64,000 nt of DNA, from the NCBI GenBank assembly GCA_036172245.1, contig JAYWIR010000020.1, forward strand, positions 1,984,001-2,048,000, read 5' to 3'. The translations under genes and the position numbers were made by a program. Shown here piece after piece: positions 19,985-56,900 of the stretch. This stretch comes from Raillietiella orientalis. Lineage: Eukaryota. Every line of letters begins with the position of its first letter. The first letter of the stretch is position 1. Below the pieces are notes generated by a model, which was not told the origin of the DNA, ran no database searches, and saw only the letters and a program-made list of their open reading frames with translations.

Positions 19985-20700
19985 CGTTAGCTTGCTCCAA
20001 GTGCTGAAGAACCGTTCACCGCCTTGGGGGGGAGGTCATTGAGATCTTTCAAGGACTGCCCACGACCACCCGAGAGTGCGCGGATCTCTTCAAGATAGGG
20101 GGGGCAACCCCGTAAAGACCACTCTATGGACCCTACGGGAACCTTTCTCTCTTGCTCTTGGTAGGTAGATCTTCTGAACCCTTCCAAATTTTCTCCGAAG
20201 GGCTCTTCACGCAGGCAGCAGCGCGCTTCTTGACATTCTGGAGAGATATCGATCCACCAGCTCCAGGGAACGCGATGGAGGGTCCGCCTCCGGAAGGAAG
20301 GAAGAAAAGGGGTGGGGGAACGCCTCCATTTTCACAACCTTAGGGAACCAACCGGTTTCTCCCTGATTTCTGGAAGGACCTCGGAGGATCAGCTTCCAAT
20401 CCCGGCTGGTCAGCTGGGACATCCGTTGACTGGCCGGGATTGGACCAAAGTATTGGTATTAATTCATAAAATCATCCAATTAGCATCGGATGCTACACTT
20501 TGATCCAATCCCGGCCAGTCGACATCCGGTTTCCGGCTGCTTCCGCCAGCACCGCATCCGAAGCTTGCAAGGCCAGCCAGCGTCATCTTGCGGCCGGTTC
20601 CACTTAACACTGTACCAGCGGTCGGCCCATGTCCTGGTTCCTCCGCTCGTGCCCGGTTCTGTGTCCGGTCCGTCGGCAGTCTTTCCATCTCGTGGCGTCC
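19985..20700 (-). mobile_element. SINE-like repeat body, copy B (no recognisable tRNA head)
   Basis: GATGACGCTGGCTGGCCTT..., CCGGGATTGGAAG...GGTCCTTCCAG and CGGTTCTTCAGCACT match copies at 17,510-17,640 and 50,245-50,970. Confidence 0.65.
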
Positions 20701-26224: not shown

Positions 26225-27043
26225 TTACAGTAACGTGAGTGGGGAGTCACAGTAAGGTGGAGACAACAAAGGGAGTGCAATGTAGAGTCTACACTTAGGG
26301 AAGTTATTTCTTCTTGGTTGTTCTAGTTGATTACCGTGGGGGTGCAGAGGTTCTGGGACGAGACCAGGGTGCAGGGGCAAGGCGGCTTTCAGCTGCTGGT
26401 TCTTCGGGCTCAGACTCGGACTCACTATGTTCGCTTGAGTTCGCCCGAGTTCGTTACGAGTAGTGACACCTACGTGATGGTTGCAAAGCCACCACAAGGC
26501 TTTAGTCGCCACAATTAGAGCCAGCATGTGCCGTGCAAGCTCATTGTTCTGATAACCATTGACTATGTTACACTGATCTGGGTTCAGTTCTATGTTCACT
26601 TGACTGAAGAACCAGTCTTCGTCGGGTACATGCTGCTCATGTTTTTTTTGAATACGTAATAATCCGTGACTAAAAAGCGCATGTAGACCAGTGATGAAGT
26701 ATTTCTTGAAAGTAACCGATGCTGAGTGTGTACTTAAGTACCACGCACAAGCCAACGTAAACGCCATCTTCCAGGTTGCGCCGCGTACGTAAAATACAGG
26801 CATGAGCTTCGCATCAGCACCAGTAGTAGTGGAGGGAGTAGTAATTCCGACTTCGACGTCTCCATCTAAGGGTGGCAGTGCAAAAATGAAGCTGGCATTT
26901 ACGCGCAGCATAGCCGCTTGCTCCTCGTTGAGAGGCTCTATCATATCATGCCGATCTCGGATGAAGAATCGTTGGTTTTGCTGTCGTTAAGCAATCGACA
27001 GAGCAAGTTCTCGAGATGAACGGCAGACTCTGAATCGTCTCAT
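26225..27043 (-). pseudogene. Endogenous viral element, probable qinvirus-like (Qinviridae) nucleoprotein
   Basis: Intronless 239-aa ORF (26,225-26,944) that extends upstream in frame through one TAA (26,987-26,989) to an ATG at 27,043. Contains LIVATKALWWLCNHHVG, matching the ATKx(N/L)WWxxNHHxG motif I recall from qinvirus segment-2 proteins; no LINE motifs inside. Confidence 0.6.
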
Positions 27044-29097: not shown

Positions 29098-29620
29098 CCC
29101 TTTTGGGTGAGGAGCTCATTGAGACGTTCCGTGTTGATGGCACGCGAGCCACAATGGCCATCCCTGTGGACGGAATGCGTTTTCGCGTGCTCCATCGAGG
29201 TACCGATTGACCACATAAAGTGCTGATTCAAGTCACTATTGTAATTGTTTATTTACACCACACTAAACAGAACATTTTCGTTTTTCCAAAGCATATGTTA
29301 TTTATTTGAAAACTATGATTACGATTCGAACAAACCGACAATTCATTCACCTCTCTGAGGTATCACAAAGATGGAAAACTGCAATGAATTCTCTGCCGCA
29401 CTGACAGAAGAACCGGCAACAGTCAGCCGATATAAATAGAATTTTGTTTACTGTCGTTGCTAAGGGAATGATAAGAACGTGGGTGCCTGCGTCCCTCTCA
29501 AACGTGTCAACTTATGTGACCAGTATGAGGTGAAAACATTTGCCAGACGCTTAGATGCGCCCGTAGCGCACGCTGGTACTTTTCGTCGGACGCATGGATG
29601 CGTCCACAGCGCTCAAAGGG
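29098..29620 (+). mobile_element. piggyBac-like non-autonomous element (MITE), copy 1
   Basis: TTAA (29094-29097) | CCCTTTTG ... CAAAGGG | TTAA (29621-29624); subterminal palindrome GGACGCAT-gg-ATGCGTCC; no transposase. Confidence 0.85.
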
Positions 29621-29689
29621 TTAAAGGAAGTTTTGCTTGCAGTGGATTGCGAAGAGGATCATTAAATAGGACAGGGAATGCAGAGGATC

Positions 29690-31900
29690 ACATGGAAATC
29701 TTCCAGATGAAAACGCCGAAATTAATGGGAAAGAGCACATCTGGCAAGACGTTCGTGCAGCGCTTGCCGGCCGCGCACTGCCTGGACAGGAGGAACGCGC
29801 GCGCACCAAGACCTGCGGCCTGTGGCATCGGAAGAACGCTGACACGCGAAGCGGCGGTCCGCAGCGCCCGCGTTCCCTTGCGGGCGCCCGCGAGGGAACA
29901 AGAAAACAGCCTTTCCGACTGCTTCACTCGGTCTTTCTTTCCCGCCAGGTCCATAACGAATGTAGTGGGAGCTGTCACACGGATAGCCTAGGCTGCATTT
30001 TGGCTCCAGAACTGCTTGCATTGCTGCTCGAGTTCATTCTTGCTAGTAATAAATGAGTCGCCCACTGGTCACTCTTTTACTTCTCTCCCGCCCATGTTCA
30101 CCTCGCGTTCTTCTGTTTCAAAAGCGTTCTGTTCTTCTGTTTTCCTGGAAGTGACCTGCGGATGTCCGAAACCTTCCTTTCCTTTTCATTTCCCAAAAGT
30201 AATTGAATTTATGCTGGCGACCAGATGGGTGGCAGTATATCAGATATGAAGCTCTTGGTGCTCTTAAGAGACTTCTTGTCTAGCGAAAAGAGATAGTGTT
30301 TCCTTTCTACACCGTGTCGTTCCGATACCGTATGTTTCGTGAGCCTGAAGATTTCTGCAGTTACCATGGTTACCAGCCTCACGTCACTTGAGGACTCGAT
30401 TTCCTCCCCATGCAAGGCGAGGAAAACGTGGATCCATGAAGAGATCTTGCAGTCCTTATGTTTCTCCAGGAATATCACCTGTATTTGTCGTACAAGAGCA
30501 AGCAGCTTAGTGTAAAGATAAACAAAGTGACAAGCGTTTTTCTTTTTTTGGATGACTTGGCTGCGCCATTCCCCTCCCCCTCCCCCAAAAAGAGAACAGA
30601 AAAGAAATGAATAAGCAGTGAATTACCGAGACAATGAATACAAAGACATATATGGATTTACCTACCGCTTACCTGTCGCTTTTTCGTCGGTGTTTTTGAA
30701 TCTCCATGTTGTCCTCGTCTTCTTAAACAACCAGAGGGGTAAAAAAATGTGCTTTGCAGCCTGAGAGGAAAAAGTCATGCTTTCTATGAGTAAACAGAGC
30801 CAGAGCTTTTTATATTGAGAGGAATGCAGAACACTGAGTCAAATATTTTGAGACGCCGGGAAGGTTTTACGTTCGATAGAGAGTCGGCGCGACCGCTTCT
30901 AGAGCTGAGGAAAAAAAGTAGAGAAATAAATTCTAAGCATGTGTTCGACATTACACGGTCGGCATCCGCACTATTGAGGAGGGTTGCCAATTTGAAGGTT
31001 TTCCCGCTGGATCTAGCCTTTGTGGAAAGCCCATCCAGCGGCTAAAAATTATTTCATCTCGCCGGGCGGGAACTCTGGAGGTTTTGAAATCGCTGGCCGC
31101 CGCCGAATTTTGCGTATTCTTCGAGGTTGCAAAGGAAACTTTCAGTTATGGATGTTGCAGATAGTCTGGAATAGAATTCGGGATATTTGATCCACCCCTG
31201 TTTCCATCATGGCGGACGCGGAGTCACATTAATGGATTATTGCGTTGTCGATAAAGATCTGTCGAGGAAAACGACTTCTTTATCATTAAAATATTTTCAT
31301 ATTGAAACTGTGATTGCTGTAGTCCAGCGGCAACTAGCCCGGATATTTAATTACAAATTCTGACGTTTCCTTTCAATTACAGGTAATGCAAGACCGTCAG
31401 TGCGGCACTCTCCTTGCAAACAAATAGAAGGCGTGCAGCAGAAGCTGCATAACAGAAATCGCACGTGATTCATTGCTAGTTTGCTATTGAATCTGAAGAT
31501 TCAGTGGCATGAAATGATTTAATCGTAATGATAATAAATTCCTGTGAATTCCTGGGTGTTAAAGTTTGGGATTTTTTTCCTTTTTTGGGGAAAATCGCAA
31601 GTTTTTTCGAAGGCCATCTAGAAGCGGGATTTCACTAACTTCTGTTGGCAACCCTGCTGTTGAATACCTCCGAATGGTGCGTTTCCAAGTCCGCAGGATA
31701 GATTGTCTCTCTGTTACCAGCATCTGAAGGAAAGCAAACAGTCCTTCGCAGAAGATCGTTTGGGAAAGGTAGCTGACTGACTCGCAAGCAGCGAATGTCT
31801 TTCAGAGCCGCTGAAGGCAGTAGCACTTGCACTCTTTGGATCAATTAGAAGACTCTCAGCGATGGAAGAAGTGATGCACCTATTTTATAAAAAAAGAGAA
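29690..31900 (-). mobile_element. Degenerate Jockey/I/CR1-group LINE RT region
   Basis: RRLKIFDSVFCIPLNIK (KAFDSV-like), LALHGEEIESSSDVRLV (thumb region), RLFSCSLAGARKGTRAL...VLPM (R..I.GA.R.T..AL motif). Confidence 0.55.
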
Positions 31901-32099
31901 AAAAGGTGTCTTAAATCCGTGCCACGAGGAAGACGAATGTTCAAATTCCCATTCACGAGAAGCTTTTCTTATGGATAGGAATGAGGATGGCGGAATTGCC
32001 ATCATTGCCTGGTGGCCACATCCACATTCGCGAAACAGACGACTGCGACTAACAGAAGGAAAAGGCAGACGACTGGAAGTGTTTCAATGGCTTGAAAAA

Positions 32100-32800
32100 C
32101 AGACGAGGAGATGCGATGTTGGCAAATCCATTCCAGTTGCATTGTTCCAGTACGTCTTTTTTTTTTTTTTTTTTAGAAGAGACAGCGCGTTATTCCTTCT
32201 TCCTCGTCTGTTTTGTGCAAAAGATCGTTCTCAAGATGCGAGATGCAGAAAGTTAGGAAAGCACAGTTACGAAAGACCTATGTAGATAGCAGCAGGCATT
32301 CTTACAGGTATACGCAACCATGCGGTGGAAGCCACGTTCTGGAAGTTCTTTCAGGAAGACTTTTCATGAAATGATGTTCAGCCATATCCTCACTTCCCTT
32401 GCATTATATAGGAAAATGTACTCAGAGCCTCATGAAGGAACAAGAATAAAGAGCGATTGGATCCTGAAGCACCGTGAAAAACTCCAGGTCTGCTTCCAGA
32501 GAAAGATTTTTTCCCCCTCGATTTCCTGTCTGTTTCATCCCCAAAATAAGGGAGCGCCGAATCCATTGTCCACATACGCTGATTAGAAGAAGAAGAAGAA
32601 TCAGCAAAACAGTACCTTTCTGCTTAGGACACAAAGCGCAGTCCAATGACGCCCGCTGCTTGGAAAAGCACCGTACTAGGCTCGAGTTTTCCGTATAGGG
32701 AGCTCCAAATTTGTCATTTCTGGAGGCTGAGTGTAGAGTACACACAACAAATTACCACTGTGCATTGGAGAGGACAAAGTCTGTGCAGAATTTTTCGTTT
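32100..32800 (-). mobile_element. Degenerate LINE RT fragment 3' of the chuvirus EVE
   Basis: RPGVFHGASGSNRSLFLFLHEAL resembles GVxQGxxLSPxLFxxxxExL. Confidence 0.5.
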
Positions 32801-32848
32801 CCCGCAAGTGAGCAAAGAATTTGGATTAAGGTCAATAACACCGCGGAC

Positions 32849-33861
32849 CTAAGATGATGGTTGTGATAGCATCATCTTAGGTCCGCGGAGACTTGCCGTG
32901 ATATTTGTGTTCATGTCCTCATCAGTGGGATTGTAGTTGGTGATTAAAGCATCCAATTTAGCTTTATGTTTGGGGTTAGTTGTCCACCCTTTGTAGTCAT
33001 TTATACTACTAAATGCTGGCCCTCCATAGAGTCTAAGTAATTCCTTCGCAACATTCTTACACAACATTGATCGTACCTCCCTCAGATCTGATGCGAATCC
33101 ATAATTCCAAGTGCTAATGTGACACTGTCGACTTCGGTCTTGAGCCTTCGGCCTTCCAATGATGGGCCATGAGAAGTCTGGAAACACTCTAACAAGGCGC
33201 GCCTTATATAGAGTAGAGCAGTTAGACCTGACACCACGGTCTGGGCCAAAGTTATACTTGCACGAAGAGAGTTGGGTCTTGTGTCTGCTCCCCAGGTGGT
33301 GAATATTATTTTAGCATTTGTTTCATCGATTAAATGACCTGTTAATTGTGCATTTATCATTCTTACCAAATCAGGAGTTAAATTGGTATTTGGTTTTCCT
33401 TCTTCAATTAGATCGGTGTTGATTTTTTCTGCCTTCTGGGTTGTGATCACGCCTCTTTTTGAAAGGATACGAACGCTTGAATGTACAGAATTGCATCAAT
33501 ATTATGTAGACTTCGTAGCGAACAAGCATCTATGAGCCACACGACTATGTTATTCATCATGATGGGTGTTAACTCTTGTCTCGCTAAGAGTCCTGGTAAC
33601 TCATGTGTATTCCAACCAGACCAGAGGGCAGGTACCTATGGTGCAATGCTATGAAGTGGACCATCTGGACCAAGCGCAGCTTCCCATGTGGCTTCGTTCA
33701 CAACTATCCACGGATTGTTTGATCCTTCATTGCACAAGAAGTAGAGTATTTCTGATCTAAACCTTTCTTGAGCTCTCCGATAATCCGATTGCCCTCACGT
33801 TTGGCGCAACTGCATTAGCAAGGATATGCAGAACTGCATATTCTTGCACTCCCCTGGACAT
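32849..33861 (-). pseudogene. Endogenous viral element, chuvirus-like (Jingchuvirales) nucleoprotein
   Basis: Across frameshifts (~33,770, ~33,460, ~33,185) and a TAG (33,636-33,638): AILYIQAFVS/SKRGVITTQKAEKI...LRASITLAQTVVSGLTALLYIRRALLE/FPDFSWPII...NYGFASDLREVRSMLCKNVAKELLRLYGG...INDYKGWTTNPKHKAKLDALITNY. This follows the chuvirus N motif order (KRG; SGLT...RA...PDF.W; YGF..DL...RST...VAKELL...GG...Y.GW). Confidence 0.88.
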
Positions 33862-33869
33862 CTCTGCTT

Positions 33870-34550
33870 AGTACGCGTTTTCCTTTTGGACTTTTCTTTG
33901 GGGAGGGCGGATATCCCATTTTCCACTTCAGTTTGCCCATAAGGATCTCTCTAAGTTTACCCATAGTCGATCTCTCTCATACACGAATAATGTACAATAA
34001 ATAGAGACGAACCATACATGGGACAATATAAATCGATTTTTCTTGACGCTTTTTTGATCCGTCTTGAGTGCGAAGTGTTGAACTTTGTTGGCTGAGATGC
34101 TTTGCTGCAAGCACTCACATCCAGACTCCATCCTGAGATTCTCTATGGCCACCAGTCTGGAAAGAAGGCAAGACAGCAAGATTCGTGGTCTTGGAATAGT
34201 CTTTTGATGAGGTGCCACTCTCCTTGAAGTTTCCAGCTAGAAGCGCTATTTGTACTTGCTGTAAGCCTTCTTCTTCTTTTTCTTTTTTTTTTTTTGGCTC
34301 ATTGCGTCTGTTGCGTCTTTTAGTGCTGAAGATGTGAGAAATCTCTGGAAAGCCTGGGTTTAGGTTTTCCGCAAGATAAAATTTTGGATCTCGACTTGCA
34401 AGCCTCTTGAACTCTTATGATGGAGTCGTTTTCAAAATTCGATACTTTGGAATTTAGAGTGAAGTTCACTTTTAGATATCTTCTGATAAGTTCTGATTAG
34501 CTGTTGAGCATTGCACAAGATGCAAATTTCATGTTTTTGTGCGTGTGACA
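33870..34550 (-). mobile_element. Degenerate L1-type APE endonuclease fragment 5' of the chuvirus EVE
   Basis: IALLAGNFK (GDFN-like), DGVW...KHLSQQSSTL...KSIYIV (D.WR..H...T..SRID-like), GKLKWK (G.WK.N-like). Confidence 0.6.
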
Positions 34551-35691
34551 GCGGCTTTCGTGACTTATCATGATCTTCAACAAAAGAAAAAAGAACGATC
34601 TCGATCTTTTTTTTTTTTTTAGCTTCTCACTGCTTCAAAGAGCAAGAAAATTTTCAAGGGCGTTAGGATTGATTAACCACGTGACCTGCAAGCAAATGTT
34701 TTTCCTAGCGTCTTTCCTGTAACTATCAGTAAGAAATCCCAAGAGACACGAGCACAACAAGTACTCCTCCATTCCTACCTTATCTGCAGTTCCATTTCTG
34801 TACGGCCGTAAACACCACTTAATCCACCGTCCCCCATGTTTTTATAAGCCACGAGGTCAAAAAACGATCGAAAAGCTGCCGGAGCAAATCCCCTTGTCTT
34901 TTGCGTTGATGGACCGAACTGAAAGTCTGCCTTTCCCAGATAACTTTTCCGACATCCGACAACTTTTTCTCTGGCATTTGCTTCAGCGGAAGCCTTGCCT
35001 CGTTTCCTCGACGGAGACACAGACGGCTGTCGATCACATGGAGGCCTTGCTCTAAGCCTTCTGGAGTTCGCGTTACCAGCATGATCAAGTTGTTTCTATT
35101 CCTCCGTCTCGTTTTCAGCAGCAAACGAGACTCTGCGGCAGGCGCAGCATGTGCCCTCTCAGGTTGACACATTTTTGGATACGAAGGGATGCGGTCCGCT
35201 TTCCGAGCAAGCAGCGAGCAAACTGAGATCCCTACTTCTAACAGGTCACTAGGCGATCCTTTCGAGGTTCTCACTTGGGCACCTCGGACGGCAGTCTACC
35301 CGTCAGAGCCCCTGCCACGAAGGTTTTTTCAATGGCCAGGGGTCATTTGGACCCGTGACGCAGTGTCCCACGGTGCGAAACTTCGCTGAGACAATGAAGA
35401 GAGAACTTGTCTTTCTGATCCCCACCTATTTTGCACGTTTCAGGAGGAGGCGCTTCACTTGTGCCAAAAAGATCAGCATTTAAACTTGCTGTTTAAAGAA
35501 CCCCGTCGGAATTATTTCAACCGTACAACAAACGCGCAGTCTTTGTCGCTTCTTATTGCCAGGAGCACCACTTTTTCGGCACCTTCATCTTCGCTCCTTC
35601 TCGATCGCCTTCGGAAACAGAGGCTACTCACTTCCGCTTGCAACGCTACTTCTTAGTGAAATGACTCCTATCTATTGATCTTTACCATTAA

Positions 35692-35746
35692 CCCTTTGAG
35701 CGCTGTGGACGCATCTATGCGTCCGACGAAAAGTACCAGCGTGCGC
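35692..35746 (-). mobile_element. Isolated piggyBac-like MITE terminus
   Basis: TTAA (35688-35691) followed by 55 bp that are the reverse complement of 29566-29620 with one mismatch. Confidence 0.85.
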
Positions 35747-36019
35747 AAGAACGCTGCTGTTTTAGAGTGCCGGGGGCCACTCCAGGTCTCCGCTGGGGAT
35801 ACCGAGGAGCTCATCCCAACGCTGTGATCCTCGTGGAAGGGCACTCGGGGTCTCTGCATCCCATGGCCAGCTGCCCCATGGTCCAACCACCCATCTCCTT
35901 CCTTACGCCTACGATCTCTCAGGAGACTTCCCACCTTTCGAGCGGTTGGCCCTGCCAGATGCCCTCCTCAGGAAGGGAGTCGTTGCACCGATTGGGGGGA
36001 TCCGCTCCGACCCCGCGCT

Positions 36020-36490
36020 CCTGCTGGGACACCGAAAGAACCGTCCGCCTGGAGGCTCACGGAGCTCTTTGACACCGTCCACCACAGCCCGAAGGTGCAT
36101 GTCAACTCTTCAGGATAGGGGTATTCCGGAAGGGGACCACCCCATAAATCTGGGAAGACTCCGGAGGAAGGAGTCCTTCCCTATTGTGCTTGGGAGGGAA
36201 CCCTCGCCTTGGTTGCCTTCGACGGGAGCCTCGAAGGAAAGAATGTCTTCCTTTTTCTCTCCTGTAGGACCCGCCGGTAAAGATCCGCTCCTGGGTTCCA
36301 CCAGCGCCTCACCCGAATACGCCAACCATCTTCATCCCGCAGGGGGGGAGGCAAAACCCACGACGCATCCCTCCCCATTCCTCGGCGTTCCGATCCTTCC
36401 CTGGGCGGGATTCGAGCCCGCGATACCTTGGTGCTACTAGGCGCACGGAGAGACCGTAGCCACGCGGCCGCCAACGGGGCGTGTGGCTCA
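36020..36490 (-). mobile_element. tRNA-headed SINE-like repeat, copy C
   Basis: Head GCCCCGTTGGCGGCCGCGTGGCTACGGTCTCTCCGTG...CGCGGGCTCGAATCCCGCCCAGGG (A- and B-box-like); body matches 50,810-50,940 and 40,575-40,680. Confidence 0.7.
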
Positions 36491-37900: not shown

Positions 37901-38358
37901 CACAGTTGAGACGATGGAATCCCAGACGAAATGCACTCTTCTGCTCCCCGGCTGGCTTGAGAAAACGGAGTTCGTGCCATCCCTGTCTTGGAGAAACTGT
38001 AAGAATGTGAATTCTTCCATGCTTCGGATCAGCTAATGAACTGACTTCGGTCGGGATGGGGATACAAGTGAGATGCAACGGATGCTGACGGGGGCAGTCA
38101 TTCAAACCGCTTGATTTTCCAAACATTTCAGTATGATCTGCTCCGAAGGCAATTATTCCTGCTCTTCTGTTAACTCGTGAGGATGCATTTGGTAGTGCGG
38201 ATGGGAGCTTTCAGTTGGTAGAACGTGGCGGAGTGCAAAACACGCACGCACACGACTCTAGAAAACCCAGTCCAGGAGAAAGTGTTGCACGTGGTAGGGA
38301 GGCCCTTCTGCACGTTGGGCACTGATTTAAGTTGTCCAGAAGAACTGCACTTGTTCAA

Positions 38359-38873
38359 CCCTTTGAGTGCTATGGACGCATACGTGTGTTCGGCGGAAAT
38401 CATCGACGTGGACTATGGACGTGTGGATGCGTTCGGCAAATGTTTTTATTTCATACTCGCCACATAAGTTAACACGTTTGAGAGGGACGCAGGCACCCAC
38501 GTTCTTATCATTCCCTTAGCAACGACAGTAAACAAAATTCTATTTATATCGGCTGACTGTTGCCGGTTCTTCTGTCAGTGCGGCAGAGAATTCATTGCAG
38601 TTTTCCATCTTTGTGATACCTCAGAGAGGTGAATGAATTGTCGGTTTGTTCGAATCGTAATCATAGTTTTCAAATAAATAACATATGCTTGGAAAAAACG
38701 CAAATGTTCTGTTTAGTGTGGTGTAAATAAACAATTACAATAGTGACTTGAATCAGCACTTTATGTGGTCAATCGGTACCTCGATGGAGCACGCGAAAAC
38801 GCATTCCGTCCACAAGGATGGCCACTACGGCTCGCGTGCCATCAACACGGAACGTTTCAATCTACCCAAAAAG
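38359..38873 (-). mobile_element. piggyBac-like MITE, copy 2 (inverted relative to copy 1)
   Basis: TCAA | CCCTTTGAG ... CCCAAAAAG | TTAA (38874-38877); full-length reverse-complement alignment to 29098-29620. Confidence 0.85.
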
Positions 38874-41349: not shown

Positions 41350-41390
41350 AACCCACGGCGAGGGGACGTTACGTCCCCTCGCCGTGGGTT
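41350..41390. repeat. Perfect 20-bp inverted repeat with 1-nt spacer
   Basis: AACCCACGGCGAGGGGACGT-T-ACGTCCCCTCGCCGTGGGTT. Confidence 0.97.
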
Positions 41391-44990: not shown

Positions 44991-47900
44991 TCAGAAAACT
45001 CGGCACAAATTCCCGATCCCTTTGTCAGGCCGAGAGAACTGTTCTATCAAGTGGATCACCCCGTTGGTTGCTGGTATGTCCGGGTGCACCACGCGTACTT
45101 CGTTCACAGTGGCGAGCCTCTCTGGAAAAGGCAACGTTGCAATGTGTTCTCAAGAAGAAGTCGGCGCGAAGTTCCTTATATTTCCGGTCGGTTTAAGGAA
45201 AACTTTCACGCACTCGAAAGCGCATCCGCAAGTCTCACCTGCTCGGAGCAGCATCAATTAAAAAAAAAAAACGAAAAAGGGGAAGCGAAGACATGTGGAA
45301 AAAATCATACGACGTACTTCTTTTCCCGTCGGTAGTCACTCCACACTGGAGGTCGGTGCCCTTGAGCGCAGTGCTGAGGAACTGCCTGTCTCTGACCCCT
45401 TCGCTAAAGTAGGTTCCAGGAACAACGTGGTAAAGCAAACCGTCTGCAACGGAGGGGAAAGCAATGTAAGATGAGCAAACGTTCAGCGCATGCGCAGAAA
45501 GAATCGTTTTCCAGACCTTTCAGAGCGGTTTTATTCCGTCGCAAAGCTTTCGATTCTTTGGCACTGATGGATGCAAAAGCCTGAGGTACGGGAGCAAACA
45601 CTGTGAAAGGACCTGGGCCTTCTAGGAAAATATCCAGCTTTGTTGCCAGGAAGACGGTGCTAAGATCTATTTCGATAAAGAGAAGGAAATGCTGTTAAAA
45701 GTCTGTCATTTTACGATCGCCTTGCTGGTGTTTCATTCTCTTGCTCCGACGGTATGCGAAAGGCCAGAATGGCCTGCTGGTTCAGAGCACGCCTTCTTTC
45801 TTCTTCGCGAGCAATGTCAGCGATTGCAGCAACAAGCTGAGCAAACTGGCGACGCGTTTTTGATGCACTGCCTGCGTGGGTTTTCCGACAATCTCCTCTT
45901 TTGCAGCCAGCTCCCACACGCGCCATTAGCAAAACTGAGGATCTCTAGGGATCCGGGAAAGCAGGAGGATCACTTCCAACCTCAAGAGCCCTCGAGCAAA
46001 CCCAAAGTTCCGATATGGAGCATTCCCTTCCGAATAAGGATGGGGAGGGTGGGCAAAAGAATTTTCACCTAAAAAAAGGGAACCGCAAGCCACACTGGAG
46101 ACAGCCCGTGTGGAAGGAAGGAAAGGGGGAATTAGGATTTCGCGGGGATTTTGCCTCAGCCTGAGATCGTACGGCTTGATTTGCTTGCACTCTGCTCCAC
46201 TAGATGGGTCTGCCGTGTCTTGTTTGCTGTGTCAACAGGAAGTTGTGGTGCACAGTGTCAATGACGTCTAAGTGGAAATCATTACGGAATTGTTCAAAAA
46301 TATCCCTAAAAACCTAGCAAAAGCTCTTTGGAGACCGAGAAATTTGGAGTTGGGGGGGGGGGGGGGTGCTACAATACAGGGTATGGACAAATCCCGTAAT
46401 GGTGAAAAGTTGCATCGAAAAGGAAGAGCAAACTCCGCCTCATTCCACCGGAAAGCCGCTTTACTCGGACGCTCCCGAGGAAGGACACCGCAAAAATGGT
46501 AACGAAAACCAACAACTAACGTTATCAAACGAAGTGTCCAAGCACGGATGCAGACACAACTGGCAAGCGGTTTCCAGAAAGATGGAATCAATTCAGGCTG
46601 GTTCCTAGAGGACCGAGGTTTCGAAAGAGCACTTTAGAAGATGATTCTTTGGCAAGCAAAACGTGGGGAGGTCTTTGCAAAGGAGACCCTCCTGATTGAG
46701 AGCAGGGCAAGCAGGGAAGGGGGATTCGTCCAGGAAACGAGCGACGTGCCTGAAAACTGAATGGTCCGTCCGAGCTGAAAATCCAAGAAGGAAACTTCAA
46801 GCTGAGCGTGATATTTCTTCCACGCTGAAAATTTAAACAACTGAGGGACAAAGAGGAAACCGTTTCCAATTCCGAAAGAAAGAAAAATTCACGTCTTTCC
46901 CACTTTTAGCTAAGCGAGGCAGCAGTAATTCATTTGCTGTTTCAGCGAAAGGATGGAAAGGTTTCCTCTTAAAATCGAATGAAAACTGCCGTGATTGATC
47001 AGAATCGGCTTGAGAACAGCTGGGAGATCGATTCAAGAAAACAAGGACCGAAATTGGGACGAACGCAATGGAAAGTTCAGGTACTCCTGGAAACTGCGAG
47101 TTTCCACGGTAAACGAAAGGAAATCAACCCTAATCAGGGGTGAGATCTGGAACATCAGCAGGTACTCTCCGAAATCTCAGAATCAACCAAAGCAGTCATT
47201 TCCGAAAAGGATTCTTCGGAGAAAGTGTGGAAAAAAAAAAAAAAAACATTTTTTTTTTCCACATTGGATTTGTTGTGGATTTGTGATCCATCACCAGATT
47301 ACGAGGAGGCATTTGAAGTTTGCATGGAGGGTCCCCGAATCGCTGTTGCCGTCTCGAAAATTTCAGTTTCAAGAAAGGTAGTTTAAGACGTGCGCACAGC
47401 CGTCACTGCTGCATCCATAACATGAGGAATCACAGCAGCAAAGACTTTGCGAGCCTAAGGGTGGTTATACAGTACAAATCAACTGATTGCAATCAACTTG
47501 CCTTTCCTTTCTTGATTCGAGTGTTCATTGCATACCGTGTCTTGTACTCCGAGGTTCTCTTTTTCCCTAGTCGGCTTCCTTTTCCTAGCTCGTTTCAAAG
47601 TCCGTTCTGTAGCATTTTGAAACGCGTCGGTTCCAGATAAAGGCGCCGTAGATTCGGCAGCGATCACACTCATAACCCGAACGTGGCTCTCAGTGACAAA
47701 CTGGTGCAGAGAGAGAGAGACTCTAGAACCACGGTTTCCGTTCGAGGAAGCTCTGTTCTTTCCTGGTCCCAACCGAGGAATTTCTTGGACGACTTTAGAG
47801 GGTGCCTTCACGGTGGATGAGTCCTTTTCCATTTTCCAGAAGAGCGCTCAGGAGAAACCTGCGAATCTGTGAGCTCCCATAGAAGGGGAGGAATGCTTCC

Positions 47901-50900
47901 TTTACTTTCAATGCGCGATTTCTTCCGGAAGCGCGCAGCTGAAAGGTCACATCCCGATTCCAGCAAGATGTGGCCAGTGAGCGCGTTCTTATGAAATGAC
48001 GCTGTAGTTAAAGCGGATGAAGGAATTGCAGGTTCGGATTGAAGTCGAAATTCAAGGAGATCTGGTGGAAAATCTTGCCCGGTTGCCGACTGGAGGCTCC
48101 GGCGACCTCGGACAGCTACCTGCCTTGCTAAACCGCCTTCTTTCTCCTGCAATGGCTCCCTTCGCCTTCTTGCTTCGCTTCTACAAATAGCTTCTAGGCA
48201 CTTTCTGTTTGCGAATGCTCTTCCGCAGTCCGCCCTAAGAGGCCTGGGCCCGCTACGAATGCCAGAGACGGGGACCGCAGCATACTACTGTGGGATGCTC
48301 CGCCGTTCCCACGCCGCAAGCATCTCTGCCTGTCTTTCCGGAGGGGAAACCAGATCTCTACAGGGACAGTGGCGACCCGGGTCTTCTAGGAGTGTCTTCG
48401 GAATGCTGGGCCAGGTTCCGATCTTCCAGCTCCACGCAGCTTTCCCCAAACACCTCAACCCCTCCGCAGCACTTGAACGTTGCTCCAGCTGGCGCTCCTA
48501 TTCTCATACTGCAGCGGAGTCCATGATTCGGTCACTTTCTCTGCAGCTTCGAAAGGGCAACTGAAGCTTAACCGCAGTTCTATATTCCGTTCCCGTTTCT
48601 CATATTAGGGAATGAGAGTATGGAAAGGATATGAGGGAACACACAGGTTTTCTTTCCTCGGAAACGCAAGTGGATTACAGGACATTTCCTCGATTGACAA
48701 GCCGAGATGGGATGGTTCGAATGGAGATGGTTTGGGGCGGGAGGGAGGGGAAGAAGCCTCGAAGCACAAGCAAGCAACCACTTCTTGCGTGCCTGGCCTG
48801 AGCACTCTCTTGAGTGAGTGCGGATTCACGGCCGGTTTCCTCGTTTCGATGCCGTGAAGACCGATGAAGCCAGAGATCGCTGGCGGCTCCGCGCCGGCGG
48901 AAGGAGCCGCTCCAAAAGCTCTCCGTGCGCATCTCCGAGCAGGAAGCGGGAAAACCGCCTGGCTGAAAAAATCCACTATCCCGCCTAGGACGGATCCCGA
49001 CCGTCCGAAGAGACGCAGCCGCATCCCCCACGTTTGAATCCCGGGTCGAGAACGGGCCGAGCACCCGGCAACGACCCGCGAGTTCCCGCCGGACGGTCCC
49101 CGTGCGGACGTTTCGTTCGTCCACCCGAGCTGTTGCGAGCAGCACTTGCACTTGGGAACGGGATGGGAAAGGAAGGAGGAGGAGGAGAAAAAAAAAGAAA
49201 AAATGTGTCCCAACGTGCTGCGTCCTGTCTTCGGACTGGACCAACCAACGCTCTCCACGGCGCGCGTTGGGTTTCACCTTTCCGGCTCTTTGGGCGGGAG
49301 CGGAGGTTGCCTTACCTTCGAAGTAATCGCAATCGAAAAAATAATCGTTAATCGATCTATCTATGAGGGGGAACAGAATCCCGTCGATGATGTGGACAAC
49401 TCCGTTGGGGAAGGGCAAATCGGGGTCCGTTATCTTCACTCCGTTGACAGTGTACACCGCCTGGAAGTGGACCGAGAATCAGCCTGGAGCTTCGCTGCAG
49501 GATCGCTTCGGAGATCCGAAGAGAGGGTTGGGAGGAAGCCGCAGGAAGCGAACCGAGGAGGCCGATCTATTTCCGGCAGCCTCCGGATCACGTAGGTGGG
49601 TAGGAGTCGCGCGCGCTTCCGGCGGCCACTTTCTTTCGTGAGGACGAGAAGATCGAATCGGATAATTGAGATCGTCGCGGAACGATCGGTCGGAGCCTTC
49701 TTGATCTCGAAAGACGGTCCGTTTTCCTCTCCTCTGGCACCGACGGGGGCGAGAAGGGGGAGGGAGGACGCTTGCTTTGCGGGGACCGTGCACCATCCGT
49801 TCATCGGCACTGAACGACGTTCAAGATTTAGTGCTGGAGAGATGGACCGAAATCGAATTCGTGCGAGATGAGGGTCGAAAATTCATTCCCGAAGAGGAGG
49901 CGCCGTTCTGGTGATCATGTGCTTCGCGAAACGCCTTCATGTAACTCACTGCTTCCGGTTTGCAGTCTTTGGAGCGATCTCGGTAATGCCCTAAGGGTGT
50001 ATCGCACGGCGAAGAATGGTTCCAGATCGAAACGTGACGTCAAGTTAGGAAGGAGGGAATCAGAGAGATGGGCACACGAGGCTGCACGTTTCGCCCACGT
50101 CGGCACCTCCATGAGGCTGCGGTCTCTCCGTGAGAGGTGGCGCCAAGTGTCGCGGGTTCGAATCCTGCCCGGAGAACGATGGATCGGGACACCGAGAAGT
50201 GGAGAGGGTGCGTCGCCGTGAGTTTCAATTACTCCCTCCCTGAAGGATATGACGCTCGTTGGCCTTACGGGCTCCGGGTGCGGTGGTACTAGTGGAAGCA
50301 GCCTCATGCCCCTTTTCACCGACCGGGATTGGAAGTCGGCGCTCCTCCGGGGTCCTTCCAGGACATCGAGGAGCCCTTCAGGGTTTCCCCTCCGGTTATG
50401 GAAATGGAACGTTCCCTTCCCACACGACGGGGGAACCCTGCATCGCTTATTAAGCAGCTGGCTGATGCCTCTCTAGAGTGTCAAGAAGAGCGCTGTTCCC
50501 TTCGGAGAATGTTCTTCAGGGAAACTAAGAAGCTCCTTTTCGATGTTCTCTTCAGAGGAGGAAACTAGGAGAGGATCCTTTCCGGGGGATTCCTCCAAAA
50601 AGAAAATTCAGGGGCGGATCCTTTGTGGGTTTCCTTCGGAGAAGAAATGAAGAACGATTTTCTCTGAAGGGGTCCCTCCGGAGAGGATAAGGAGAAGGTG
50701 GTTGGTTCCCCTCCATGAGGCTGCGGTCCCTCCTTGAGGGGTGGCTCCAAGTGTTGCGGGTTCGAATTCCCTTCGGGGACGACCAGAGTGAGGATTTCTT
50801 TCGGGATTCCCTCCCAAGCGTGAGAGGAACGGACTCGCCTTCATGGACTCATAGGGTGGTTCCTCTGGGGTTGTCCCCTAACCTGGAGACGCATCCTCGG

Positions 50901-53900
50901 GTGGCATGGTCGGTGCTCCAAGAGCTCCGTGAGCCCTCCTTAAAGAGACGAGCGGTTCTTCAGCACTCGGCAAACCAAAGGGAAAGCAAACGAAACTTTT
51001 CGTGAGGCTTCGTGACTTTTTGAAGACGAAGCGCGGGTGGGGATTCAGAAAAGTGACTTTCTTAAGGTAGCCTTTGTTGTTCTGGAGAGTCACCCCTATA
51101 AGTGGAAGAAAGAGATGGCGCGAAAGGAGACCCCCTCAGATCCGTTACCAAGGATGCCATCCGCTGACTCCGCGAAACAGTGAGCGAGATAAGACGGGGG
51201 GGAATGGGTACGAAACGAACAAACCTGGTGCGGATCAAAAATAGAAGCTGCGCCGGCAGGAAGCGGAAGCCCACGAGAAGTGAATCTGCCCTCTTCTCGC
51301 CGGAAGGACTGGACTCGGAAAGCTTTCTTGGTGTGATGGCGAGGCCAAGACTTTGGGCGAAGCTGGATCGGAAAGTGCTCTCGGAAGGGAATGCGGGTTG
51401 TCCGATGCCCCACCATCACTTTTAAGGAGGAGGGGAAGGAGGAGGAGGGACGTCCCGAAGAGCACAGCACCGTCGGGGCACCAGCAAGAATCCTTGGAGG
51501 CAACACCCCTTCCGAACGTTCCTCCTTCCGTTCTGACGGAATCGCTCGAGCGATTCCTTCGAGTCCTTCGATGGTCCCGGCTTATAGATGGTGGCGGCGG
51601 CTGGGGAGAAGTGGCGGAAACGCGGCCCCACTAGGCGCGCGCGCCTCGGCTGACCCCGACGCTCCCACACCCATCGTTTTCCTGCGAACCGCTCCTGACG
51701 TGCAGCTCCGGCTTCCCTTGGGAAAGTTCGCCGCGCCGTCCCCCTTGGCGCGCGTGCGCAGATCTGCGGCGGCTTTCGGGGTGGCACGCATGCGCTGCGC
51801 TCCCTTTCGTTCTGGTGAGCTCGCGAGCGAACGCTCTCTTCGAGCAAAGAACGAACTCTTTCGCTGGGCGCTGCTGCCCACCGGAAGCGGCACCAATCAG
51901 AACGGTTTGGGACACACCCGTGCGGTTCCCCCCACGACTCGAATCCCCTGGAAGCGAAGGGAATGCACCTTTTCCTTCAGGCCGTCTCCTCTCCCGACGG
52001 TCCTTGGCTGCAAGACGGACGGAAGCTGGGGGCGTCTTCGAAGAGGATTCACTTCACTGAGGTTGTCCCCCTCCCAAAGAAACTCTGTGGTTTCCAAACC
52101 CGCGGTAGTGCCTGCATCCTCCCCTAAACACATTTCTTATTTTCCTCTCGAGAGCTCAACCAGGCAACAGTAGCGGAAGAAAGAAAGCCAAAGCCGAGCG
52201 AGATGAAACGGAGAGTGAAATGGCACGGAGAGGAAGTCGTGGCAGCAGGAGTCACGCGTCTTCATCAACGAGGAACCTCGCTGGTTGGTTGGTTAATCGA
52301 AGGTGAGCACGGCGACAAGCAAAGCGAGAAAGTCATCCGGTTTTGCTCCCCCTCCCCTAATTCGTGTGCAACGGGAGCGTGTTCCTATAATTCCCAACTT
52401 CTTCCCCTGCTTGGTTCGCTCCGTCGAACGGGCTTCCCTGCTGGGAACCTTTGCACTGGGAGAAACCAGGTTCATTTTTTTGGTCCAAGAGCGCCCCGTG
52501 CTCAGCATCGGGCCGCCCTGCCACGTTTCGTAGATCAGCGCCAGGTCAGGGCGAGGACGAGGCAGCAACCGGGCGCGTCATTCGATTCCGTCGGCAGCTC
52601 TGAGGACCAGAACCCCACGGCGCGCGGCTCCTAGGGACGACCAAACTGCGGTGCTCCATTGATCGACAGGCGAGGCGGTGCGGGTGGGTTCGTTGCGACC
52701 CACCTCGTGCGGAGCGGGAAGCTGGATGCTGTTGCTGACTGCAACGGCAGAAGAACCCCTCAGAATTTCGAGAAAGATCTTCCCGTCCCAGCGCCGCACG
52801 AGACTCCGGAATCCCAAACCAGCAAAGCAAATCCAGGAATCCGGAGGCAATCGAAAGATTCAGCATCATTCAGCAATCACGAACAGAGAGGATCGCGACC
52901 GTGGTTGCTGGAGGCGTCACAGGAGTACTGGCAACATTAGAGGAAAGGCATGCAGCTGATGGGAGAAAGATACTTTCGAACATCCGAAAAAGATTTCCTT
53001 TGTCACGTGAATGATGCAGATGCATTTCTTTTTTAAAAAAAAGAAACGAAGGAGGATGCAGAATCTGAGACAGGTTTTCGGTTGGCAGGATGGAACAGGA
53101 ACGGGATGAAATCACGAAGTCGCCTTCGTCACATCACGTGGTAAAGAATTCCAAGACGCGTTGCTGTTTTGGCGCGCCCCGCTACGCCATCGAATCGGTA
53201 TCACTGGGAATGGTTACGATGGGAACACGCAGCAAACGTGATGGCGCGAGGAGTTATCGAATCACTCGTATGTGGCAGCTGTCTCGTATGTGACGGCTTC
53301 CGTGGACTTGCTGATGAACAAAGATAGCCAGCTGAGGCCGTTCCAGTATCCGTAGGGCCCTCCTCAAAACCCGATGGATTCCGTCAGGAAAGCTCCCTTT
53401 TTCCTCCCCCTTCGTGAGCAGCCTTTTAGACAACCAGTACACGAGACCAGCTCCGGAAGTGGCAATCCTGCGTGCTGCATGATCACTTTCCGAATTCTGG
53501 CTACCAAAAATAGGATATATAACGTGCTATCATTTACGATCCATCACTTTGAATGGTGCTGTTTTTTTTCTTTCTTTTTTTTCCAAATAAAGGATCAGAT
53601 GCAACAAAGACGGCGTATTGTACAGTCGTACAGTTCAGAATTCGTGTAACGTCCCCTGGATCAGAAATCTTCACGTGGTTCTTCGTTATTCTCTTTGCTT
53701 TTGCTAATTCCACCGCCATCTATCAACTGAGCTTGAAAGCCTCGTGGATCGTGAATAGCGGGGGTCTGGAAACGTGTAGGTAAACCGCTCGTCTTCACGT
53801 TCTCCTTGGAGACATTCGTTCTTGCCACCTAAGGTACACCGGATCCTACCAACCTGCCTAAAGACCTAAAGAACAGGATGCCCGTATCACAAGAGCATTT

Positions 53901-56900
53901 GCCGTTCCGATTCGTGGCACACTCTGCAGGAAATCTGTGTCTCGGGCGTGGTTTCGAGGGACCGAATGAAAGGATTCAAACAAACAAACGCGCGCACACA
54001 CACAAAAAAAAACTCCTTTTCTTGTCCTTCACGAAACATCAATCGAATTTCACTCCTCAAAGCAACAAAGACCTGGACTTTTCGCCTGCATTTTCATACG
54101 TTTGAGTTCCGCGACATTCATCGATACGTCAGGACGCCTGACGACGTTCTATTTCGTATGCTTGAGACTCTTTGACCTATCGCGACCTGGTATCCGTGCT
54201 TGGACTGTCCGAACAGAACGCTGTGAAGCCTCGGCAGCGTCGAAATCTCGGCACGACCACTAACAGACTATGCAGGGACGCGCGCGCACCTCACCCACCC
54301 CACCCCTCTCTCTGCAGCAGTGCGACGCGTGAGAAGGTTGCGGTCCATCTCACTCTTTGCTCTTCCACGCGTTGAGTTCCCTCTGCAGACGTTTTCGGTT
54401 CGAGGAGCTCCTCCGAAGAAACTGGAATTTCGAAAAGAGATCCGAACCTGCGGATGCCTGCAAGGGATGCCCTCACTCTGTCTACGTGTCCCACGGGCGG
54501 CGAGACGATTTTTCGGAATCGCGTTACCCACCGAGCAGCATCGTCGTGAAAGTTCCCCTCGCGAACGCGAGGAAGGTGCGCTGGAAGGATGCGTGTTCAG
54601 CGGCGTCGAAGCTACAACCACCCATTCATGCCACTGCCATACTATTCTAAACCGGAAGAGGTCTGAATTCACATTTCGATACGGAAAACGTGATAAGGAA
54701 AGAGAATGCGCAGAGACGGACGACGACAAAGCCTCCGACGTATTATCTTTCTACCCTGAATCTTTCGTGGATTCGGTTGCACAAACGTGTAGGTCCTCTT
54801 ACACGATTGCAGAAAGGGAGGGAGGCATCTTAGCTGTAAACAGGGGCTTTGCCATCGAACGTGGCGATTATCTACGCATGCAATTGGGACTGACGAATTT
54901 ACTGAAGGGCTGCTTTATACGTTGGCTGGCTGTTTCGACAGTCGAATAGGCCGTAGGAATCATTGCCGAAGACTTTCAGGACCAGCCTGCGGAGACGCCA
55001 ATCGGACCTCCACCTCGCCGTTTTCAGGCAGCATCGCCTTCGCATCTCCGTTCGAGTCGGAAGCATTCCGGTGAATCCGCAGAATGAGAATACAGTGGTA
55101 CCTCGGGGCACTCGTCGGGAATTCGCTCTGGAACTCGTGACGAGTGCTGAAACCGACGAGTACAGGACGAGTTCCTTTCTAGACTTCGGGGTATCATTTT
55201 TAACCATTTTAGGACCCAGGATTAACGCTTGAAATGCGAAGAGAGCAAAGAAAAGGAGAGGATTCGAGAGGCCCCCTATAAGGAAGTGTTCGGCACCGTT
55301 CGCGAGCTACCATGAGATGAAAGCATCCACTTGTTCCATCATGAGAGCGGGATTCGAGTTTCGAGCATGCGCCGCCAAGTGTCGAAACTTTTTTCCCTCG
55401 TCAAAATGCGACGAGTACTGAATCTGACGAGTTCTGACGCCGTCGGGTGCCGAGGTACCACTGTACTTGAATCCATTCACGCCAGCAATTCTACAGAGGG
55501 AACCCTTTGCTTCTGGTCCCCTTGCCTCATCAAACCTTTCCTCCCTCCCTCTCTCTCTTTCATTCTGTTCTTCAGCCTGTAGGCTGCCTCTTTTGATAAC
55601 CGGAGAACGTTTCGCGTAATTGGGTAGGATCGTCATCACCGTAGTGATCAAAAACGAAAACGAAAAAAGAAAAGTCAGCAAAGGGATTTTTTTGTCATCA
55701 CAACTGTTCCGCCAGCACAGATGACCGAAAAACAGCAACGGCCTACAAGCGTAGAATCTGTCTCCTTTTTTTGAGCACCGTAACTTTTCTATCGTAGAAC
55801 TTCTGTGGAAGGAAGCTTCTGATCTGGAGGGTGCAGCGCTTGTGTTTAGGTGGCAATCATGTTTTATTTATCCTTTCTCCTTCTTCCTTGCTTTATGCTG
55901 ACATCAGGAAAGATTCCATTCATGCGACATTTAAGATGTGCCAGTTGTTTACCTTTCAGCTGCCGATGACCCCTTTGCGACCACGTTCAAACAAACCCCA
56001 GGGAGCCCAGTGCATCCACTACAGCTTGGATTCCCTTTGAGGCGCTTAGAAATGCTGTGAAGATTGTAAATTATTGAATCGCTCTTCCTTGGAGTATTTG
56101 GGAATTTCGATTTAGATTCGGAGAGATAGTGTTCGAGACATTTGGATTTGGCGCACGATTTTTTGCTTTGTGTGTGTGTATGTGTGTGGAACTGTATTGG
56201 GTTTTTTTTTATGTCATCACCGTGAATGAGAGAGCGAAATTGTCTATCCGGAGTTCGAGACGGCTAGGTAAACGTTGCTGGGCAACTGAACATTCAACCC
56301 AGGTCACGGCAGATTACGCGGGGAGCGCGGAAAAGATTCCAAGTTAATCGCAATTTTGCGAAGACGTGCCTCGGCTCCGTACTTGCGTGTATGAGCATCT
56401 CTGTGGTGATGAAAGTTGAGGAAATCAAGTGAAGTAACTTGGTTTCCTTCGATCTCACTGAGCGAAACAGTTTCTTGCCCGTACGGCTTGCGCTTACGAA
56501 CAACGTAAGCGAAGTGAAGCGGGGGAATAATTGGAATTGGAACGAAAAGAAAGAAAAGAAAAAAAAACACGAAGCGGGAATCATCGATTAGAGCGAGTTG
56601 TAAGCAAGTTAGTGGAGTCGAAATGGGACGGTGTTAAATAGTCAAGGCGATCGCAACGAGCCGAAATGTACCTCGTTGCTGGGCGTCACTAGGGGCGTTG
56701 CCTTCCTCGTGAACCGAATGAAGGATTGAGGAATGACCGGCAGCACACGCTTCCTTCATCTATGGCCCGAGAATAATCGGCAACAAAGCGATATCCGCGC
56801 AACAATCATGTTCGCAACAATGAGCGCGGAGTGGAACGACCTCGATCCTCCTCCATTGTTGAGAAAACGCAACTGCCTCCTCTGCTGGTCAGACGGGGCA

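What the first reader, a model, noticed from the sequence alone, without database searches (positions are those of the whole stretch)
32849..33861. Chuvirus-like nucleoprotein EVE sandwiched between LINE endonuclease and RT fragments
Seen: about 1 kb of N with at least three frameshifts and a stop. An endonuclease fragment lies immediately 5' (33,870-34,550) and an RT fragment 3' (32,100-32,800), all on the minus strand and in native ORF2 order. Known: chuvirus EVEs are common in arthropods, with glycoproteins typically captured by Bel/Pao LTR elements. An N gene nested in a LINE, ~6 kb from a second unrelated viral N, suggests a hotspot for viral capture.
Basis: partly seen in the sequence, partly recalled or inferred. 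Interest (0 to 1): 0.72.

Follow-up and report, generated by a model that had tools for sequence, protein, structure and literature searches.

The report
Decayed chuvirus nucleoprotein fossil, no LINE
A broken 1-kb copy of an RNA virus's nucleoprotein gene sits in this animal's chromosome about 6 kb from a second, unrelated viral fossil; it is a known kind of viral fossil, and the jumping gene said to enclose it could not be found.

Summary
The viral half of the finding holds; the LINE half does not. Minus-strand 33,885 to about 32,860 is a chuvirus-type nucleoprotein (N) fossil: 44% identity to the best database hit, named chuvirus N among the hits, three clear frameshifts and one stop. Neither flank resembles a LINE: 15-25 bits, shuffle level, against six LINE families of this genome, while real LINE remnants in the same window score 253-273. 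There is no convincing target-site duplication and no poly(A). The second N (26.5-26.9 kb) is qinvirus-like. The genome holds about 9 chuvirus-N and about 30 qinvirus-N places, often LINE-flanked and sometimes paired, so clustering is real but this locus is unexceptional. The scan noted similar N fossils on other pieces of this genome, none at this place. Most likely: viral RNA copied by a host LINE reverse transcriptase in trans and captured at a DNA break; now decaying. Interest 0.27.

The parts
32860..33885 (-). Chuvirus-type nucleoprotein fossil, 5'-truncated (profile positions 71-399 of 421; firm homology 33,846-32,891), single copy at DNA level
33760..33790 (-). Frameshift 1 (near 33,771)
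33636..33638 (-). In-frame stop codon
33450..33470 (-). Frameshift 2 (near 33,460)
33100..33195 (-). Frameshift 3 (near 33,188) and probably two further compensating shifts (near 33,149 and 33,105)
   Evidence: third shift; the other two, from comparison with the C5 copy only
32841..32888 (.). Perfect inverted repeat, two 19-bp arms (32,841-32,859 and 32,870-32,888) with a 10-nt loop, at the 3' edge of the fossil; the stop that ends the last reading frame lies in the outer arm
   Evidence: (z = -5.9; 0 of 200 shuffles fold as well)
33886..34900 (.). Upstream flank: single-copy DNA, no detectable LINE endonuclease, viral N or viral glycoprotein
31700..32840 (.). Downstream flank: single-copy DNA, no detectable reverse transcriptase, no poly(A) (longest A run within 300 nt is 5)
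26468..26896 (-). Second viral fossil: N-terminal 142 of 375 profile positions of a qinvirus-like small-segment protein (presumed N), no stop or frameshift in the matched part, inside the open frame 26,225-26,986
35747..36034 (-). Nearest real LINE remnant (post-RT part of ORF2, L1/Tx1-like family), 1.9 kb upstream of the fossil
   Evidence: 76 bits

Best explanation
A non-retroviral endogenous viral element. RNA of a chuvirus-type negative-strand virus was reverse-transcribed in the germ line (step inferred; the likeliest enzyme is a host L1/Tx1-like LINE reverse transcriptase acting in trans), and about 1 kb of N cDNA was joined into ordinary single-copy DNA 12 kb downstream of the last detected exon of a fasciclin-domain gene. 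The join was probably end-joining at a DNA break rather than a complete target-primed insertion: there is no poly(A), no convincing target-site duplication, no co-inserted LINE, and one end carries a short perfect inverted repeat of the kind left when a free 3' end folds back and copies itself (inferred). It then decayed (shown: frameshifts and a stop) and makes no N protein. The qinvirus-like N 6 kb away is a separate insertion.
For: Shown: homology to named chuvirus N; breaks; host context on a 3.45-Mb contig with fasciclin exons at 57.3-45.0 kb; no LINE in the flanks while controls ring; no TSD (best direct repeat 11 of 12 nt, matched or beaten by 32 of 500 shuffles, and its second copy lies 210 nt past the hairpin); perfect hairpin 3-12 nt past the end of detectable homology. 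For a LINE as the enzyme: the genome is rich in intact L1/Tx1-like LINEs; 18 of 41 other N fragments have a LINE within 700 nt and 22 of those 26 flanks are co-oriented (not independent, some fragments share a LINE); no Bel/Pao protease match (control did not ring). Short fold-back inverted duplications at breaks, and capture of cDNA at breaks, are documented in yeast (PMC11724301, passages). A second chuvirus N fossil (contig C13, L154) also ends inside a perfect 16-bp hairpin.
Against: The enzyme and the repair route are not shown at this locus. Perfect hairpins are far commoner in this genome than in random DNA (another 20-bp one at 41,350; 10 with arms of 14 bp or more in 452 kb), so this one may be a later template-switch mutation. 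Only 1 of 82 other fossil ends has a hairpin of 16 bp or more, against 0.2 expected (P about 0.18). DNA identity to the closest 3' copy does not continue into the hairpin (5-7 of 19 at best), so it is not shown that the inner arm is viral. A perfect hairpin next to a decayed gene could be younger than the insertion. An old TSD or poly(A) could have eroded.
Confidence: 0.68

Rival explanations
1. Ordinary LINE-mediated retroposition of N mRNA in trans (processed-pseudogene route, as for bornavirus EBLN), 5'-truncated, whose poly(A) and target-site duplication have eroded; the hairpin is a later local mutation.
For: 5' truncation with a nearly complete 3' end (profile 71-399 of 421) is what target-primed copying from the mRNA 3' end gives; abundant LINEs; weak 11-of-12 direct repeat at 33,863 and 32,619; hairpins are common in the genome.
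Against: No A-run longer than 5 within 300 nt downstream; the direct repeat is matched by 32 of 500 shuffles; no recognisable viral stop or 3' untranslated stretch after the homology ends.
Confidence: 0.2
2. One reading: N sits inside a LINE ORF2, between its endonuclease and RT, either captured by template switching or inserted into an older LINE copy.
For: The arrangement exists elsewhere in this genome for qinvirus-like N (L065 and L069: endonuclease upstream, later ORF2 downstream, same strand and family). The best noise-level matches of one family fall in native order (profile 218-275 upstream, 618-640 downstream). The test loses power for an unsampled family beyond about 10-20% decay.
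Against: Scores 15-25 bits, equal to shuffles; joined flanks are matched or beaten by 2-19 of 25 shuffles per family. The test detects pieces of a sampled family up to about 35-40% substitution, far more than the N itself has decayed (84% amino-acid identity to the C5 copy over 70 residues). Flanks are single-copy. The RT motif typical of CR1/Jockey/L2/I LINEs (recalled) has 0 exact matches in the genome against 203 for the L1/Tx1-type motif; a relaxed version gave 5 against 8 in its control.
Confidence: 0.07
3. The locus is part of a small single-strand piRNA cluster that archives viral N sequences, kept for antiviral silencing; the hairpin could feed small-RNA production.
For: Between 18 and 41 kb both N fossils and all four LINE remnants found lie on the minus strand; chuvirus and qinvirus N fossils are neighbours on C5, C4, C84 and C34, co-oriented with their nearest neighbour at C5, C84, C34 and C4; viral fossils are enriched in piRNA clusters and near non-LTR elements in Ixodes (PMC6580184, passages).
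Against: The stretch is LINE-poor (remnants in 7 of 63 tiles), mid-contig and mostly single-copy; six elements are few; C84 and C34 were found through their qinvirus hits, so they do not count as independent. No expression data were obtained.
Confidence: 0.12

Closest known systems
Chuvirus (Jingchuvirales) nucleoprotein EVEs of arthropods
   Same: Fragment of a chuvirus N gene with disrupted frame in host DNA. Li et al. 2015 (PMC4384744, passages) list chuvirus G and N EVEs in Ixodes and say most EVEs are disrupted; 2 Mono-Chu N EVEs in ants (PMC6540820, passages).
   Different: A distinct virus lineage (27-44% identity to database N over 91 residues). N is the rare chuvirus gene in mosquitoes (1 of 428; PMC7642597, abstract and passages), whereas here N places (about 9) outnumber glycoprotein matches (3).
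Bel/Pao-captured chuvirus glycoproteins (Anakin)
   Same: Chuvirus gene in an arthropod-type genome.
   Different: This is N, not G; no retroelement flanks it; no Pao protease match in the genome (weak negative); broken, not a working envelope gene.
Non-LTR-associated viral fossils and the multi-virus 'hotspot' of Ixodes scapularis
   Same: Unrelated negative-strand viruses fossilised close together in a LINE-dominated genome (PMC6580184, passages).
   Different: Here the partner is qinvirus-like, this locus itself has no adjoining LINE, and piRNA output is untested.
Endogenous bornavirus-like N (EBLN), LINE-1 retroposed (features recalled; PMC2987831 and PMC3205384 seen only as search listings)
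   Same: N gene of a negative-strand virus fixed in the germ line, LINE enzyme the likely agent.
   Different: No poly(A) tail or convincing target-site duplication here.
Fold-back templated inversions at double-strand breaks
   Same: Short perfect inverted duplication at a junction; most 5-34 bp in yeast (PMC11724301, start of abstract and passages).
   Different: Shown in yeast repair assays, not for viral fossils; here only the end product is seen.

Membership tests
Chuvirus-type N endogenous viral element | Homology to chuvirus nucleoproteins | tested here: met
   19 hits at E<=0.001; of 10 looked up, 4 are named chuvirus-type N, 5 unnamed, 1 an unrelated bacterial repeat protein; tblastn to E 4e-24
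Chuvirus-type N endogenous viral element | Embedded in host chromosome | tested here: met
   3.45-Mb contig with fasciclin exons and host repeats; assembly-based, no reads were available to lay on it
Chuvirus-type N endogenous viral element | Disrupted reading frame | tested here: met
Chuviridae (family level within Jingchuvirales) | Placement in the family by phylogeny (normally on the polymerase) | tested here: inconclusive
   91-column N tree: no well-supported set holds the fossil; it lies nearest the C5 and C13 fossils. No polymerase fossil found (control did not ring)
LINE-virus chimera / EVE nested in LINE ORF2 | Endonuclease homology upstream | tested here: not met
LINE-virus chimera / EVE nested in LINE ORF2 | RT homology downstream | tested here: not met
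LINE-virus chimera / EVE nested in LINE ORF2 | Both flanks map in register to one LINE family | tested here: not met
   joined-flank test against 6 families at shuffle level; families absent from this genome's intact set could not be tested
LINE-retroposed copy (EBLN type) | Target-site duplication | tested here: inconclusive
   best candidate 11 of 12 nt, 32 of 500 shuffles as good
LINE-retroposed copy (EBLN type) | 3' poly(A) tail | tested here: not met
   longest A run 5 nt within 300 nt
Bel/Pao-captured chuvirus gene (Anakin) | Glycoprotein inside a Pao element | tested here: not met
   gene is N; flanks do not match the genome's glycoprotein fossils or any Pfam retroelement family
piRNA-cluster viral archive | Several co-oriented EVEs and transposon fragments | tested here: inconclusive
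   6 of 6 elements on one strand in 18-41 kb, but sparse
piRNA-cluster viral archive | Antisense 1U piRNAs | not testable with these tools
   no run could be laid on it
Qinvirus-like small-segment protein (second fossil) | Homology to a named qinvirus protein | tested here: met
   fuller genomic copy L064 hits Hubei qinvirus-like virus 1 hypothetical protein at E 3.8e-39; that protein hits 26,878-26,474 at E 7e-7. That the protein is the nucleoprotein is recalled; PMC6955108 calls it a putative structural protein

The most novel reading that the evidence does not exclude
The perfect 19-bp hairpin is the preserved fold-back end of the viral cDNA. With the C13 copy it would mark a route of viral capture by self-primed cDNA ends joined at breaks, in a genome without detectable Bel/Pao elements, where LINE enzymes archive mostly nucleoprotein RNA of chuviruses and qinviruses in paired, same-strand sites that feed small-RNA defence.
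Probability: 0.12. Interest if true: 0.55.

Novelty: new member of a known kind. Interest (0 to 1): 0.27.

Why it matters
As it stands, a record of an unsampled chuvirus lineage, and one more sign that this genome keeps nucleoprotein rather than glycoprotein fossils and relies on LINEs rather than LTR elements. That contrasts with mosquitoes and agrees with ticks. If the hairpin proved to be the insertion junction, it would give a readable footprint of how RNA-virus cDNA is joined into germ-line DNA, a step that is usually only inferred. The more striking LINE-nested cases in this genome are at other places (contig C22), not here.

Tried and rejected
Word-indexed protein searches with the 137-aa chuvirus piece and the 253-aa second frame found nothing; the exhaustive search and a fuller genomic copy did. 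Pfam has no family for either N; no solved-structure match; no usable Atlas hit; no relative of the second N in viral contigs. My first guess that the second N was phasmavirus-like (recalled motif) was dropped. Flanks as LINE: rejected. Flanks as the missing N start or as viral glycoprotein: no support; low CpG upstream (0.55 against 0.64 in the fossil and 0.94 in the window) is too little to act on. Hairpin as a native chuvirus feature: no paper held all of chuvirus, circular genome, palindromic and intergenic, 'palindrom' does not occur in PMC4384744, and other copies that reach the N C-terminus lack it. Hairpins as a general mark of fossil ends: not significant. The '4 of 8' co-clustering figure was dropped as biased, because C84 and C34 were fetched through qinvirus hits; 2 of 6 is used. 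A pattern scan of viral contigs for LINEs of other clades returned nothing, so those clades were tested only through Pfam. Sequencing runs: none was listed. Search for papers joining viral fossils and inverted duplications gave nothing relevant among 4 listings. Supplements of the papers were not read and may hold N-fossil or junction cases.

Full report
Setting. The window is G000:C20:1,984,001-2,048,000 of a 210-Mb eukaryotic assembly in 491 contigs; contig C20 is 3.45 Mb. A fasciclin-domain gene runs on the minus strand with exons found at about 57.3, 49.4, 45.6, 45.4 and 45.1 kb. No other Pfam-recognisable coding piece was found among the 150 longest of 198 stop-free frames in 13-48 kb. 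The host is an animal, probably an arthropod; that is inferred from the known hosts of the two virus groups and was not tested.

The viral gene is real. The stop-free piece 33,495-33,085 gave 19 hits at E<=0.001 in the exhaustive search. Of 10 looked up, four carry names: nucleoprotein of Chuviridae sp., nucleocapsid of Belostoma flumineum mononega-like virus, Liman tick virus nucleoprotein and dermapteran chu-related virus 142 nucleocapsid; five are unnamed and one is an unrelated bacterial repeat protein. tblastn with 18 of these proteins maps homology from 33,885 to 32,861 in frames -2, -3, -2, -1. A frameshift-aware alignment to a profile of 13 database proteins scores 268 bits (10 shuffles: 16-23) over 33,846-32,891, profile positions 71-399 of 421, with shifts near 33,771, 33,460 and 33,188. 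A stop lies at 33,638-33,636, and the C5 copy suggests two more compensating shifts near 33,149 and 33,105. The start of N is absent. The DNA is single-copy. The closest genomic relative, on C5, is 71% identical over 431 DNA columns and 84% over 70 residues: a related virus, inserted separately. The 91-column tree does not place the fossil with support, so 'chuvirus-type' is the safe label.

The LINE flanks are not there. Both flanks are single-copy (the only repeat in the downstream query starts at 31,656). Pfam found no RT or endonuclease in the three minus-strand frames of either flank at E<=5. I collected LINE ORFs from the genome, which fell into two large L1/Tx1-like families and a few small ones (clade names recalled from the motifs). 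tblastn with 35 ORFs, an unfiltered profile search with a reversed-sequence control and frameshift-aware alignment against six family profiles all left the flanks at noise, 15-25 bits, while LINE remnants at 11.8-13.1 kb and 18.3-19.3 kb scored 253 and 273. Joining the flanks did not help: 2-19 of 25 shuffles matched or beat the score in each family. The same test found a LINE within 700 nt of 18 of 41 other N fragments, on both sides for 8, but gave 19-23 bits beside the two fossils of this window. The nearest real LINE piece is 36,034-35,747. Limits: the test keeps power to about 35-40% substitution for a sampled family but only about 10-20% for another family, so a very old LINE of an unsampled clade is not excluded. 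A LINE inserted together with N would be no more decayed than N and should have been seen if it were L1/Tx1-like. The RT motif of CR1/Jockey/L2/I elements (recalled) had 0 matches genome-wide against 203 for the L1/Tx1-type motif (relaxed form at control level).

Junctions. No poly(A) follows the gene. The best direct repeat across the ends is 11 of 12 nt, matched by 32 of 500 shuffles. It starts 3-12 nt after the last firm homology, and the stop closing the last frame lies in its outer arm. Short inverted duplications made by fold-back of a free 3' end, and capture of cDNA at breaks, are described in yeast (PMC11724301; start of abstract and passages read). The C13 fossil also ends inside a perfect 16-bp hairpin. 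Against: such hairpins are common in this genome; 1 of 82 other fossil ends has one of 16 bp or more, 0.2 expected, P about 0.18 (ends are alignment ends, and some fragments are halves or duplicates); and DNA identity to the nearest 3' copy does not extend into the arm. The hairpin is a real feature; its link to the insertion is a reasonable inference.

The second fossil and the hotspot idea. The frame at 26,986-26,225 has 29 matches in the genome. A fuller copy (L064) hits the Hubei qinvirus-like virus 1 hypothetical protein at E 3.8e-39, which in turn hits the window at E 7e-7; the window keeps positions 1-142 of 375. Chuvirus N fossils occur at about nine places, counting C3 and C141 once (lower bounds). 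Of six other places found by chuvirus queries alone, two (C5, C4) have a qinvirus-like N within 15 kb: P 3e-4 for uniform insertion, 0.03-0.10 if fossils are confined to 5-10% of the genome; only about 10 kb was fetched around four of the six, so neighbours could be missed. Two more pairs (C84, C34) were found through qinvirus hits and are not independent. So pairing recurs, but this window is a LINE-poor example. Only three chuvirus-type glycoprotein matches were found; polymerase and Pao protease searches were blank, with controls that did not ring.

How it most likely arose. Shown: viral origin, chromosomal context, decay, absence of detectable flanking LINE, hairpin. Inferred: reverse transcription by a host LINE enzyme in trans; joining at a break with a fold-back at one end; neutral decay since. 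I give this 0.68, eroded ordinary retroposition 0.2 and nesting in a LINE 0.07; a piRNA role (0.12) is compatible with either origin and is untested, as no run could be laid on the locus.

Comparison with what is known. Chuvirus N fossils are in print for ticks (PMC4384744, passages) and ants (PMC6540820, passages), and are rare against glycoprotein in mosquitoes (PMC7642597, abstract and passages; PMC10084718, passages). Non-LTR association and a multi-virus hotspot are described for Ixodes (PMC6580184, passages). Qinvirus-clade EVEs are known in arthropods. No supplements were read. Earlier notes of this scan describe similar N fossils on other pieces of this genome, none at this place or for this sequence. 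Verdict: a new member of a known kind, interest 0.27.

Noticed in passing
   Followed up: partly
L063 (C72:171-174 kb) and L064 (C33:625-628 kb): Nearly full-length qinvirus-like N with open frames of 353 and 365 aa, between an endonuclease of one LINE family and RT of another; the two loci look like copies of one another.
   Followed up: partly
L167:4,693-5,697 (G000:C20, about 2.9457 Mb): Qinvirus-like N without stop or frameshift over profile positions 6-330, in a 412-aa open frame, with no LINE beside it; candidate recent or preserved fossil.
   Followed up: no
L150-L151 (G000:C5:320-332 kb): Four chuvirus N fragments and one qinvirus-like N, all on one strand; one chuvirus N is split by a LINE, and a qinvirus-like and a chuvirus fragment abut.
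   Followed up: partly
L076:669-1,124 (G000:C34) and L162-L163 (G000:C84:50-63 kb): Abutting or interleaved chuvirus and qinvirus-like N fragments, all on one strand; seven fragments in 13 kb on C84.
   Followed up: partly
L154:4,986-5,030 (G000:C13, about 3.2045 Mb): Perfect 16-bp hairpin at the 5' edge of another chuvirus N fossil; homology ends inside the inner arm.
   Followed up: yes
window 41,350-41,390 and 20,395-20,520: Other perfect inverted repeats (20 bp with 1-nt loop; 17 and 12 bp); perfect hairpins are much commoner in this genome than by chance.
   Followed up: no
window 30,980-31,656: 677 bp that is 96.6% identical to a copy about 460 kb away on C20; its 3' part belongs to a family with 38 matches in the genome.
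   Followed up: no
window 29,118-29,625 and 38,354-38,861; end piece at 35,685-35,746: Two inverted copies (92%) of a 508-bp element, plus a 62-bp end piece, around the fossil; probably a non-autonomous DNA transposon (type not tested).
   Followed up: no
window 45,027-57,310, minus strand: Exons of a gene with at least two fasciclin domains.
   Followed up: partly
G000:C68:59 kb, C68:443 kb, C26:517 kb: Three broken chuvirus-type glycoprotein matches, fewer than the N fossils.
   Followed up: partly
whole genome: Intact LINEs sampled are L1/Tx1-like plus a few small families; the CR1/Jockey/L2/I-type RT motif was not found, unusual if the host is an arthropod (recalled).
   Followed up: partly
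P0034, P0039, P0059, P0060: Qinvirus-like N homologues annotated as host proteins of two ants, a sea spider and a rotifer (one labelled a group II intron maturase); probably unrecognised viral fossils.
   Followed up: no
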